Part shown: in pieces, positions 30,101 to 39,100 of the stretch | Layout: the number at the start of each line of letters is the position of its first letter | How positions within the stretch are numbered: the first letter of the stretch is position 1 | Notes under the pieces: model-generated | Seen by the model: only the letters and a program-made list of their open reading frames with translations | What the model was told of the DNA's origin: nothing | Databases searched by the model: none | Made by a program: the position numbers and the translations under genes | NCBI RefSeq assembly: GCF_963506605.1 | Contig: NC_083287.1 | Coordinates: 39,370,001-39,434,000 of the forward strand | DNA from: Zootoca vivipara | Taxonomy: Eukaryota | Length of the DNA: 64,000 nucleotides | Direction of reading: 5' to 3'

Positions 30101-33100
30101 TATGGTACTGTATGTGTGTTCAAATTACAATGGTTCTTGAGTAGCATCTTGTAAGGAATGACCAGTAAACCACTTCAAGAATAGGTAAGCAAAGATGAGC
30201 CAGTCTGTGGTATTATTACTTGGCTCACTGACAAGAAAGTAATCCCAGCCATCCAACAGTACTAAATTACCTGTAAGTCAACAGTAGCCAATGCGGTACC
30301 TTCTAGATGTTATAGACCCACCAACTCAAGTCAGAGTGGCCAATGGTCAGGGATGATGAAAATTGTAACCCACAACATATGTCAGGTACCACAATGGCTA
30401 TCCCTACACTAAGTCACGAGACTACAACTTTCACCATTCCTATCTGCTTAATCTGATAAGGGTTGATGGGAGTTGTAGTTCAGTATCATCTGGGCACCCA
30501 AGATTGAAGAACACTGTGATAGAAAAATAATGTAGTCAGATGGAATTTATTTGCAAATTCTACCCAAGTAAATTATTTCCTCTTATTCAAGGTAGCATTT
30601 CAATGCGTTCTATATTTCAATGTTAGTAACATATTTTGCGGTTAGGATGCAGATCCTTTGTGTCAAATCCAGTGAGCCATTTTTTAATCTAGCAGATTCA
30701 TAGCATGCAGTGATGCCCATTACCTGCAAACTCTGTAGCCATCCAGGAAAAAGCTGAGAAAGAAAGAGAGTCTTTTGTAAGCAACTGCTCACCTATGTGG
30801 GCTCCACTGTTGTGACCAGCACATTCAGCTTCCTCTGGATGAAGTGTAAAAGCATACAGAACAAAAGCCAAGAAATAAAGCAGAATAGTTAGATGCCCAG
30901 CCATGAATGCAAAAGAAGAGTTACTTAAAAATGACAACTGCAGAAAGCACAGCATAAAAAGCCTTCTATATGCCACTGCTTAAAAATAAATCACTGTGTT
31001 GTTCTGAAGTTGAGCAAGTGATTTTGGAGTACAGCAACATGCATATTTAACTTTTCACTGTTTTATTGCCTTATTCATGACAGAAAATAAAGAAGTGTTT
31101 TTAAAAGGTGTTCTATTTTATATTTTAATGTAGGATAAAAAATACAACAGCTGAAACACAAAGGTAAAGAAATCTACAAAGAATATCAGGAGTTTTTGTA
31201 TTTGGCTCAATGGATCAGACAAAAAGGGTATTTTTAATGAATATAACTTCTTAGGTAATGTCTAACAAAACACTTTACAGCTTTTTGGTGTGTGTGTGTG
31301 TGTGTGTGTGTGTGTGTGTGTGTGTGTGTGTGTGTGTAACCTATCTAAAGAAATCAATGAGCTGCAACTCTTTAAATATATGCTGCAAGTGAAAAGTCCC
31401 CCAAAGATTGACACCACAGCAGTAAAGCATCTGTTAAGTTGTGCTCCAAAAATTGCACCCCTAATGATTGGAAAAGATCCACTTTATTCAGTGCCAAAGT
31501 TTGAATTTAAGGATAATCTATTAGAGCTGTGCAATAGGACTGCCATCATCTTTAGCTCCACGGAAATGTCTTGTATTAACATATCTGCTTTGTTCAGTTA
31601 TGTTACTTTGCTAACATTCAGAGGTTTTAGCACACATTCACTCCTGTTCTGCATACTTGACCCATGTGCAGAAATAGGCAGATCTGTTGTGTTGGGCCCC
31701 CCAAAATTCCTGCTATGTGAGGAGAAGGAAAAATACAAAGGAAGAAACCACATCTGACAATGGGATAACACATGTGGATCCCTGTGCCTTACCCCACAGG
31801 AATCTTCATGCACACATGCCAGTACTGTGCTGTAGGAACTACGTGCAGAAAGCAACATGTTCACAAGTCTTCTGCTACCACGATTCTCAGGACTTGAACT
31901 ATTTAGCAACAACAAAGCAACTGGCTGTTATGACTACATATACTGCTATCTATATGGATTATTTTCTAATTGCTTCTAAGTCAGTGATGACCTAGAATAC
32001 TCAGTTTTTAAGCCATCTCTTGCAGCCCAGCAGGGAAACTTGTACATGTACCTTCAACTTCCTCTGAGAAGCGCAAAAGGAGAAAAAATAGGATGCAAAG
32101 TGATTACATGGACTGAAGACATAATGGAAGAATAAAAGGGGGGGGCACCTACCACACTCAACTGTTTCCTCAGCTTAGAACAGCCAAAAGACAAGCAGAC
32201 ATGATTTACATTATATTCAGCACATAATAAAATGGGAAAAACAGAGCTGAGTAATATAAAGAACAGGTTAAGAGCATATTTTGCAGAAGTATGATGCACT
32301 GCACGTTCAACATTTTGCTGCAAAAGCCTGTACCCCAATTTCTTTTATGGGAGTGGGAAATGAGGGAACCTCACTTTCAAAATGTGTAAGTTTTTTTTGG
32401 TGCATATGCAAATGCTATGTTCCCCTAACACTGTTTAAGAGACAGAAAGGTTTGCACCAGCCCTGGGATGAAAAAACAACACATTAACTAGTCATGTTCT
32501 GCTTAGCATCATAAGTAAGAGTCACTGGGTTTTCAACTGTAATTTTGAAATGGTTACACTCTTAAGTTGAACTTGTCTACAGGTTGTTGCTTTCATCCAG
32601 ACTTCCTCTAGCCCAGAACTTTCCAAACTTTTCATATCGGTGACACACTTTTTAGACATGCATCATTTTGTGATTCAGTTCTACTAGCAAACCAGAGGTT
32701 AAACTAACCCCTTATAAGAGCACAGGGAGCATTTGTGTGACACACCCACACATTGTCATGGCACACAGTTTGAAAAGCTGTCTGAGCCCGGAAGTAGGGA
32801 ACCTGGGGTTCTCCAGATGTTGCTGGACTCTGAATCCCATCAGCCCTAGCAAGTATGGCTAATGGTCATGAAGGATGGGAGCTGTAGTGGCCATAAAAAA
32901 CCTCATCGTCTTGCGAGGCAACCTCCGATCGCAAAACCTATTCGTATAGCGGAAAATTTGTCTTACAGGGCATTCGTCTAGCGAGGCACCACTGTACTTA
33001 AATGCATTCTTAAGAGGCAAAGGATTAATAATAGTTCATATATGTGCTCTTTACAACTGATACAATGTATTATGAGCAATACCATTACCTTCTCAGCCAA

Positions 33101-36100: not shown

Positions 36101-39100
36101 ATTAGAGATTTGCATATTTATCATTTTATTCACTGTAGGGAATAGGTTTTGCATAAGTATTGATGTCGGAAGTGGGGATAAACCATTTTCTATCATGAAA
36201 ATCCCATTCCTACAGCATCACAGGTTTCGGCCTGCTGATATATCTTAAGATACAAGCCAAATTTGTGTGAACAAAGGAGTATGATTTCTAAGCAGACTTA
36301 CATGATTTCCTATTGGAAACTTTCAAGGGCTGAACCTGTACATCTGATCTTCTTAGTGCAAGCCTCCTATAAAATGATTTGGGGGAGGGGAGGAAGAGAA
36401 GCAAAACTCTTTAATTTTCATAGCTACAGTATTTTGAGATTAACACTCCATATCAGTCTTTTCCAAAGTATCCTGATTTTTAGAAGACATATTCCTAAAC
36501 AATGCAGTCTACTCAAAGTCTATGAAATTTAATCCTAGAAGGGTTTTTTATGTTCTCCAAACACAGCTGCAGTTGTTATTCATACATAGTACATCAATAA
36601 AGATACAGATACCAATGGACTATTTTCCATATGTTTTTCCTTTCCAAGGTGGATCACAAATATAAGGTTTTGTCATTATTAATGTGAATAGACAAATAAA
36701 AAAAACAAAACTACTTGGGCAACAACTTACAAAGTTCAGACATTTTACCATAAGACAAAACTTGAAAGTTTGCTGACTTTATAATCCTTAAGTGCAGGCA
36801 TAACAATTATATCAAAGATATACTGATCACATTTTAAGTATCAGAGAAATCAGAAACTGCTCACCTTTCTTGGAAATGCTTTGAAGGAATTAAGCCTGCC
36901 CTGGGATTGGCATTACCTTCAAGCTTGGCTTGCCACCAAGTTGCATCATCCTGGCTCATGATCTGAAGAATATCACCTTTTCTGAAAGGAAGTCCAGCTT
37001 CTTTACAGGGAATTGCTTTATCCTCACTGGGATCATAGTCAAACAGAGCTTTCATGAAGATCTGGAAGAAGAAGGTCTTATTTGTAATTAAATGTCTTAA
37101 TACAACCCCCAGTCTCCGTTTTTATTGCTTATTGGCATACAAACAACATGTGTAAAAATACAATTGTAAAATACATTTACATATGCGTACAAAATATATT
37201 TCAGCTAGCAATCTGAGTAAGTCCCTTTTTCTAAGTAAAGAACCTCTTACCTTTCCTTCTTTAGATGCAGTTTCTTCTTTGATACTGGGTATAATTTTAA
37301 ATGTAATGGCTCCTTGTGACTGAGACTAAAAAGATGTGAAAAACAAATTATTAAAGCATTCAATATAAGTTAAACAAAAACAAGAAAGAAGGTAGAGCTA
37401 ATGTAATTTGTAGTGCTTGTTAACTTGATGTGAGTAACATCTTAGTACCTCTTTATAATAGGCTGTGCTACGATATTCTCTTCTGTCCTAAAAACAGACA
37501 CGTTCTGATAATTTATGCAAAAGTTTGTTAACAGAGTGTTTACAATCAAGTTGTGTATCAATTGTTATGGATTAAAAAACACACCATAAAATAAAGAAGT
37601 GAACAACCTCTCTTGATTTATCAAAGAGTTAATGAACCAAGAAATAAAGGATATAAAAATAACCAATACAAGAAAAAAGGCAAGAAGAAAGGCTAAGGTC
37701 AGGCAGGAGGAAAAAACTGAGGACTGTGCCTGCCTCCCAGAGTTCTTTGCTCCTGCCTCCATCACATGCCAGGGGTTGTAACACAACCCATTAAGCTCAT
37801 AATCAACTGCCTTAAATCATTCCATTTGTAACCTACCAGAATTTGTATAATTTCTTCTGGTTTTTTATCATCTACAGGAATTCCATTAACTTCCTTAAGT
37901 TCATCACCAACATGAATGAGACCTGTGGAGCATATTTATTTAATAACCATTTTAAAGTTCAATACAATTGTGCATATCTAACATTGTTTCAAGTCATGGT
38001 CATTCCTACTCTGCAAAGCACAACAGATTTCTACTTCTCTTCTAGACAAATGCAATTTTATAGAAAGGTCTCTCTGTATCTCTTTCTTGGGGAAGGCAAA
38101 AGAGAATTGTGTTTGTAGTTGTTTATTTTAATATTACTATAGTTTTATTGTAATGTGATTGTTTTTAATCTCTCTGCTCAAAGAACCTATGTTACAGGAG
38201 AGCATATGAATGCTTAGTGCAGAGAAGTGCTCAACTGTGAAACTGCAATACAGAGAGGTTGATTTGATACCTTCCTTCTTGTTGAGTTTCTAAATGTATT
38301 TCACTAATGAGATAATTTTCAAACTGCAAAATTGCATCCATAATACCAAAATCCTATCAGAGATCCATCCTATCACAATAATCTAACATAATATACATGG
38401 CAGAAACCACAAAAAGGTTTCTGGATGCAATTACCTACTTTTACCAAGCAATTTAGAATTCATTTGAAGCACTAGGCTGGCCATCACATCCCAGCAATCA
38501 CACTTTTAAACATTCTTACCACTTCTATCTGCAGCACCTCCACGCATTATTCGAGCCACAACAACAGCTCCAGTCTGTTCATCCCTTTTAATAGTAGCTC
38601 CCTTTAAAAATAAATTGAAACATTATTATGATTTAATGCTGGGCTACACTGAACAGTTTTCTACCAGCAACCTTTCAGTAACTTGAGGAAAATACTATAT
38701 TTGAGATTCCTGTCTTTACAAATGAAGTTATCAGGACCCCTCTATTCCCTGGGTGTTAAAGTATTTGTGAGGTGTTTGAGTACTGAACAATGAAAACATT
38801 AGCACTACATATAGAAGAGTGCAAGAGGGCAGATTTTGTTTTTGTTTTAAAAGACTACATTCAGAGGAGTTTTCCACATCACCCACATTATCTATCCTTA
38901 AAATAACATCCCACTTTAAAACACAGTAATTACTATTTGGACTAAGGAGTCTTGGGGAATCTTGGATAGTTTCACCAAGCAAAATTAAGTGACTTGAAAA
39001 TCATTCTACATTTCAGTACTGCTTTGGAAAACACATGGTGAAGGATTCAGTGTTTTTAAAAAGTGGAATATTTCTTACATTATGGTAACTGTTTTTACAA

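What the first reader, a model, noticed from the sequence alone, without database searches (positions are those of the whole stretch)
30793..36302. Junction-encoded stop makes the microexons interdependent (AND-gate or poison logic)
Seen in sequence: exon 10 ends with a single T (TCA T|gt), and both the 12-nt and 42-nt candidates begin with AG. Direct joining therefore creates an in-frame TAG. The 18-nt candidate begins TA (giving TTA, Leu) and ends in G (giving GAG, Glu), which rescues the frame. Inference: partial inclusion produces an NMD substrate or a GUK-less L27-PDZ-SH3 protein, so only coordinated inclusion is productive. This could be a splicing-based quality filter or off-switch.
Basis: partly seen in the sequence, partly recalled or inferred. 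Interest (0 to 1): 0.7.

Follow-up and report, generated by a model that had tools for sequence, protein, structure and literature searches.

The report
MPP7 microexon cluster with junction stop
A lizard cell-junction scaffold gene (MPP7) carries an ancient set of tiny optional exons, two of which create a stop codon if spliced in without a 21-base exon before them; this would likely destroy such messages, but it is most likely a side effect of the encoded amino acids rather than a purpose-built switch.

Summary
The region is intron 10 of lacertid MPP7 (minus strand). The junction stop is real: exon 10 ends in T, and the 12-nt and 42-nt exons start AG, giving TAG. The rescuing exon is a 21-nt exon it missed (32173-32153), annotated from fish to mammals; a 21-nt mouse Mpp7 microexon is listed as neural-up. 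The 18-nt candidate appears in 0 of 348 proteins. Skipping everything is in frame (the 576-aa form), as are the 21-nt exon alone and a lacertid 30-nt exon alone. So the rule is '12 or 42 needs 21 first', not an AND gate. The arrangement is old: MPP3 in the same genome shares the T end, a 21-nt exon and an AA-starting 42-nt exon, while MPP4 has AG-starting acidic candidates after a C end, so no stop. Glu coding explains the starts. Outside squamates a tandem acceptor turns the stop into Tyr (36 of 153 models with this exon lack the 21-nt one); in squamates 0 of 36 do. Three mammalian models end exactly at this junction. No RNA reads were examined. Most likely an ordinary cassette cluster with an incidental NMD filter.

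The parts
11985..63130 (-). MPP7 coding span (16 coding exons; L27-L27-PDZ-SH3-HOOK-GUK)
   Evidence: tblastn of Podarcis MPP7 models on the window; SH3 exon 100% identical to lacertid MPP7; Pfam
36864..37058 (-). SH3-coding part of exon 9
36302..36366 (-). Exon 10, 65 nt, ends in a lone T (phase 1), donor gtaagt
   Evidence: 65-nt counterparts in MPP3 (ends T) and MPP4 (candidate ends C)
34726..34743 (-).
   Evidence: peptide in 0 of 348 proteins; chance level; single-copy in own genome
32153..32173 (-).
   Evidence: MPP3 counterpart with the same gtaggt donor; mouse 21-nt Mpp7 exon listed NEURAL-UP (identity with A inferred from gene and length)
32052..32063 (-). Exon B, 12-nt microexon, starts AG, weak donor gtacat; stop if first
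   Evidence: homolog annotated in gecko, birds, crocodilians, turtles, mammals, fish; in 0 of 23 lacertid models
30793..30834 (-). Exon C, 42 nt, starts AG; stop if first; an in-frame AG 6 nt inside would give a stop-free 36-nt form (unannotated)
   Evidence: MPP3 counterpart
30835..30924 (-). Intron flank upstream of exon C, highly conserved
   Evidence: read-through frame matches a rattlesnake gene model at 29 of 30 codons, against 11 of 14 for the exon
30724..30753 (-). Exon D, 30 nt, starts CT, seen only in lacertid models; 39 nt after the C donor
   Evidence: 11 of 23 lacertid models; gap
24218..24388 (-). Exon 11 (basic HOOK segment and start of GUK), starts CT

Best explanation
Intron 10 of this lizard MPP7 gene holds frame-preserving cassette exons of 21, 12, 42 and 30 nt, and joining exon 10 straight to the 12- or 42-nt exon gives an in-frame TAG that would likely trigger NMD, most likely as a by-product of coding constraints. 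Shown: the sequences, the stop and the open frames. Taken from annotation: the default skips all cassettes (576 aa); lacertids also include 21+42 (597 aa) or 30 alone (586 aa). Inferred: A is switched on by the neural/endocrine microexon programme, as listed for mouse; A(+B)+C adds an acidic stretch (6 D/E, no K/R in 22 residues) right before the basic HOOK segment (7 K/R in 14) and likely tunes SH3-HOOK binding. The T is held because it starts a Tyr or Ser codon at both usable junctions; the A[AG] starts are held because they finish Glu codons. The result is a one-way dependence (B or C needs A) that passively removes incomplete combinations.
For: Combination table. Isoform census: of 326 MPP7 proteins with a readable exon 10, the junction residue fits a T-initial codon in all (Y161, S146, F8, C5, stop 3, L2, W1). 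A is present in every full-length model with B or long C, except one carp model whose B junction reads Leu. MPP3 in the same genome has T end, 21-nt exon starting AC (Tyr), 42-nt exon starting AA, next exon starting CT. MPP4 has AG-starting acidic candidates of 39 and 15 nt after a C-ending 65-nt candidate, so such starts occur with no stop. Junction Glu B1 and C1 are 35/35 but non-junction B2 is also 35/35. A carp B exon and non-squamate short C escape the stop. Mouse 21-nt exon NEURAL-UP, PSI 0.13 vs 0.40 in islets (PMC8395343 Table S2).
Against: T at the last exon position is invariant although neighbours vary and G would make a stronger donor (matrix recalled), which a selected gate would also predict. 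B1 and C1 never change to Asp in 35 distinct inserts, while C4 does (6 Asp). Three mammalian models stop exactly at this junction (P0100, P0108, P0162), so stop-forming joins may be made at detectable level. The flank upstream of C is unusually conserved. The census rests on predicted models, was enriched for inserts, and cannot show stop-containing forms as full-length proteins. MPP4 exons are scan candidates, not annotated here. No RNA reads were examined.
Confidence: 0.7

Rival explanations
1. Conditional poison exon: C (and B) are included independently of A in some tissue, and the junction stop is a selected off-switch or dose control, lifted when A is co-included; outside squamates the tandem acceptor tunes the split between stop and Tyr.
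For: C occurs without A in 36 of 153 non-squamate models that hold C, so it can be included alone; both acceptors are used in A+B+C models (81 long, 30 short, regex classes); three models end at the junction; squamates have lost the Tyr escape (0 of 36 without A; with hand correction); conserved flank; invariant T and Glu.
Against: MPP4 shows AG starts without T; B2 is as invariant as B1; a carp B lacks the stop; a stop-free 36-nt acceptor exists in the window; the 0 of 36 is forced by the stop and by shared ancestry; the exon structure of the three truncated models was not seen.
Confidence: 0.2
2. One reading: an 18-nt lacertid microexon rescues the frame and only co-inclusion of 18+12+42 is productive.
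For: The 18-nt piece has a reasonable acceptor and a gtgagg donor and keeps the frame; no equally strong candidate in 26 kb of four other introns or on the opposite strand.
Against: Peptide in 0 of 348 proteins; hydrophobic where all homologous inserts are acidic; no counterpart among MPP3 exons found; no TGC in the 30 nt upstream, unlike A, B, C, D; skip-all, A alone and D alone are open and annotated.
Confidence: 0.03
3. The stop yields a stable GUK-less L27-L27-PDZ-SH3 protein acting as a dominant negative.
For: Mouse model X8 (317 aa) ends there and keeps L27, PDZ and SH3 hits; other mouse models also end shortly after exon 10 by other routes.
Against: Six coding exons follow, so the 50-55 nt rule predicts decay; the MAGUK SH3 fold is completed by a strand after GUK (recalled), so the fragment is likely unstable.
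Confidence: 0.07

Closest known systems
Vertebrate MPP7 SH3-HOOK cassette isoforms (RefSeq/UniRef models)
   Same: Same exons A, B, C and lacertid D; same productive combinations.
   Different: The models do not state the junction-stop dependence; B is not annotated in lacertids.
SRRM4-type neural microexons, including mouse Mpp7 21-nt exon (PMC8395343: passages, section 2.3, Table S2 row)
   Same: Length 3-30 nt, frame-preserving, TGC upstream of the acceptor, same gene.
   Different: Regulation not tested in lizard; the paper says nothing on B, C or a stop.
AS-NMD / poison exons (e.g. ADAM15 combinations, PMC2148059: passages)
   Same: Some exon combinations carry a stop far upstream of later junctions and are expected to be rare.
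   Different: Here no exon contains a stop or shifts the frame; the stop is made across the junction and depends on the upstream partner.
NAGNAG bypass of a stop (CFTR E831X, PMC2951375: abstract and outline)
   Same: A tandem acceptor decides between stop and open frame, as inferred for non-squamate exon C and seen in MPP3.
   Different: CFTR is a disease allele with the stop inside the tandem site; here it is wild type, and this lizard's MPP7 exon C has no NAGNAG.
MPP3 and MPP4 linker exons (own genome)
   Same: 65-nt exon 10, 21-nt acidic exon, A[AG]-starting exons, next exon starting C.
   Different: MPP4 exon 10 candidate ends in C, so no stop; no B-like 12-nt exon found between MPP3 A and C.

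Membership tests
MPP7 (MAGUK p55) | L27-L27-PDZ-SH3-GUK order and orthology | tested here: met
Neural microexon (exon A) | 3-30 nt, frame-preserving, conserved | tested here: met
   21 nt, phase 1-1, homolog from fish to mammals
Neural microexon (exon A) | UGC motif just upstream of the acceptor | tested here: inconclusive
   TGC at -24 (A), -12 (B), -20 (C); a 3-mer is common by chance
Neural microexon (exon A) | Neural-biased, SRRM3/4-dependent inclusion | not tested
   Only the mouse listing; no lizard reads examined
Poison exon (B, C) | Inclusion itself brings a stop or frameshift | tested here: not met
   Both are open with A; stop only when first
AS-NMD substrate (exon10>B, exon10>C) | Stop more than 50-55 nt upstream of a later junction | tested here: met
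   Six coding exons follow
AS-NMD substrate (exon10>B, exon10>C) | The join is made in vivo and rises under NMD block | not tested
   Indirect only: three mammalian models end at the junction
AND gate (all cassettes needed) | Only full co-inclusion is productive | tested here: not met
   26 of 32 combinations open, including skip-all, A alone, D alone; annotated
NAGNAG tandem acceptor (exon C) | Second AG 3 nt downstream | tested here: not met
   Window exon C starts AGG; present in MPP3 and inferred for non-squamate MPP7 from 13- vs 14-residue forms
Sterically exclusive exons (C, D) | Intervening intron too short to splice | tested here: met
   39 nt; no C+D model among 23 lacertid proteins; minimum vertebrate intron size is recalled

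The most novel reading that the evidence does not exclude
Exon C of MPP7 is a conditional poison exon: coding when the neural 21-nt microexon precedes it, an NMD trigger when it does not. The arrangement is older than the MPP3/MPP7 split, is tuned by a tandem acceptor (stop or Tyr) in most vertebrates and became near-absolute in squamates, so that one microexon licenses MPP7 expression wherever C is included.
Probability: 0.17. Interest if true: 0.6.

Novelty: new member of a known kind. Interest (0 to 1): 0.3.

Why it matters
If incidental, it is a reminder that 'frame-preserving' exons are not always freely combinable, and that loss of one microexon (as with low SRRM4) could lower mRNA of a polarity scaffold rather than just shorten the protein. 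If selected, it would be a wild-type example of NMD set by the pairing of two harmless exons, a class that poison-exon screens scoring exons one at a time would miss, and it is testable in existing mouse or human long-read and UPF1-knockdown data.

Tried and rejected
18-nt exon as rescuer: rejected. Repeat origin of the 18-nt region: one match only, itself; uninformative. RNA holders: no RNA holder listed; no reads were laid, so expression is open. Earlier scan notes nearby: none. B-like 12-nt exon between MPP3 A and C: none by a strict pattern. MPP4 counterpart of C: not found by the splice scan. The other three paralog regions fetched (two MPP2/6-like, one MPP5-like by resemblance) gave no useful linker exons. 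Regex classes miscalled 15 squamate rows as 'C without A': 11 are exon D and 4 are gecko A+C; corrected by hand. A GC-donor 21-nt candidate (34328-34308) has no annotated peptide and was dropped. Literature: nine searches found no description of this junction stop; the library lacks most subscription papers, and only one supplement was opened. No structure or complex prediction was run: it would not bear on a splicing question.

Full report
Identity. The window holds MPP7 on the minus strand. The SH3 exon is 100% identical to Podarcis, Lacerta and Zootoca MPP7, and tblastn places 16 coding exons between 63130 and 11985. The finding lies in the 11,913-nt intron between exon 10 and exon 11, between the SH3 domain and the basic HOOK segment.

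Observation. Exon 10 (36366-36302) ends TCA T|gtaagt. B and C start AG, so direct joining gives TAG. The same scans show two further candidates: 21 nt at 32173-32153 (A) and 30 nt at 30753-30724 (D). Translating all 32 combinations gives 6 with a stop, each with B or C first; the other 26 are open, including skip-all.

Which pieces are exons. I collected 348 proteins (some searches were aimed at insert-bearing forms, so counts are not frequencies). Dropped before counting: 1 MPP3 model, 10 without an SH3 end, 8 ending before exon 10 ends, 3 whose post-SH3 peptide is not exon 10; 326 remain. Of 23 lacertid models, 6 skip all, 6 have A+C and 11 have D alone; none has B or the 18-nt piece. The 18-nt peptide is in 0 of 348. 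Its splice sites are fair: none as strong in 26 kb of other introns or on the opposite strand, but 21 of 100 resampled introns give one, and at a looser threshold the unexplained candidates (5) sit at the top of the resampled range (mean 1.8, 0-5). A, B and C homologs are annotated in fish, turtles, crocodilians, birds and mammals, B also in one gecko. A mouse Mpp7 exon of 21 nt is listed as NEURAL-UP with PSI 0.13 and 0.40 in islets of two strains (PMC8395343, Table S2 row; section 2.3 read); that it is A is inferred from gene and length.

The logic. A starts CT here (T|CT, Ser) and gives Tyr outside squamates, and ends in G, so it rescues B and C. Annotated full-length forms are: none, A, A+B, A+C, A+B+C, D, and short C alone. 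The rule is therefore 'B or long C needs A', not an AND gate. Among non-squamate rows, 36 of 153 with C lack A, all with Tyr at the junction and a 13-residue insert, which fits a second acceptor 3 nt downstream; among squamate rows 0 of 36 lack A (15 rows corrected by hand). That zero is forced by the stop itself and by shared ancestry, so it is not independent evidence. One carp model has B alone, with Leu at the junction. In this lizard C starts AGG, so there is no NAGNAG, but an AG 6 nt inside would give a stop-free 36-nt form, not annotated.

Conservation. The junction residue fits a T-initial codon in all 326 rows. In the same genome MPP3 has a 65-nt exon ending T|gtgagt, a 21-nt exon starting AC with the same gtaggt donor, a 42-nt exon starting AA within tandem acceptors, and a next exon starting CT. 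MPP4 has a 65-nt candidate ending C and acidic candidates of 39, 21 and 15 nt, two starting AG. Thus the T end is older than the MPP3/MPP7 split, and AG starts occur where no stop can form. In 35 distinct full inserts the junction Glu of B and C are invariant, but so is the non-junction second Glu of B.

A stop here precedes six coding exons, so NMD is predicted. Three mammalian models (mouse X8, a whale, a camel) end exactly at exon 10; the intron's own gt would give Cys, so these need a partner starting AA, AG or GA, but their exon structure was not seen. The 90 nt upstream of C match a rattlesnake read-through model at 29 of 30 codons, more than the exon (11 of 14), as expected of a regulated exon. 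T is kept where G would give a stronger donor (matrix recalled).

Mechanism. Shown: sequences, frames, stop. From annotation: exon use. Inferred: default skipping; A-led inclusion in neural or endocrine cells adds an acidic stretch (6 D/E in 22 residues) before the basic HOOK (7 K/R in 14). The review PMC7662862 (passages) names MPP7 SH3-HOOK as the MPP5-binding region needed for membrane association, so the insert likely tunes that. Incomplete B- or C-first messages would decay. I put by-product with passive filtering at 0.7, a selected conditional poison at 0.2, a stable truncated protein at 0.07 and the 18-nt gate at 0.03.

Known comparisons. AS-NMD of certain exon combinations (ADAM15, PMC2148059, passages) and NAGNAG bypass of a stop (CFTR, PMC2951375, abstract and outline) are described; coordinated exon blocks appear in PMC12758388 (listing only). 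Nine searches found no account of this MPP7 junction stop; the library is partial and unopened supplements may list these exons.

Limits. No RNA reads were examined; no other lizard genome was available, so conservation of bases in MPP7 is read from junction residues; isoform models are predictions.

Verdict. Real sequence feature, wrong rescuer, overstated logic; exons already annotated; a modest, testable side observation. Interest 0.3.

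Noticed in passing
window 30724-30753 (-): A 30-nt exon seen only in lacertid models lies 39 nt after the 42-nt exon's donor; the two should exclude each other, and a fused 111-nt form would stay in frame.
   Followed up: partly
window 30835-30924 (-): Intron flank upstream of the 42-nt exon is more conserved against a rattlesnake than the exon itself (29 of 30 vs 11 of 14 codons).
   Followed up: partly
window 32052-32063 (-): The 12-nt exon is intact in sequence but in 0 of 23 lacertid models; a gecko form adds Gly-Thr, which fits a donor 6 nt further on; a cobra prediction reads Trp at this junction.
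   Followed up: partly
window 24218-24388 (-): Exon 11 is also phase 1-1 and is skipped in frame in several models (P0002, P0099, P0195, P0196), removing the HOOK segment.
   Followed up: no
L007 7133-7197, L008 2260-2280 and 4361-4402: MPP3 shares the T end, 21-nt and 42-nt exons; its 42-nt exon has three tandem AGs, of which only the middle one would give a stop after exon 10.
   Followed up: partly
L012 (minus), candidates at 8839, 6949, 5233, 3836: MPP4 has a similar run of acidic small exon candidates after a C-ending 65-nt exon.
   Followed up: partly
   Followed up: no
window 31288-31337: (GT)25 microsatellite, a CA repeat on the sense strand, between the 12- and 42-nt exons.
   Followed up: no
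window 20600-21300: GC- and CpG-rich stretch inside intron 11; not examined, possibly a repeat element.
   Followed up: no
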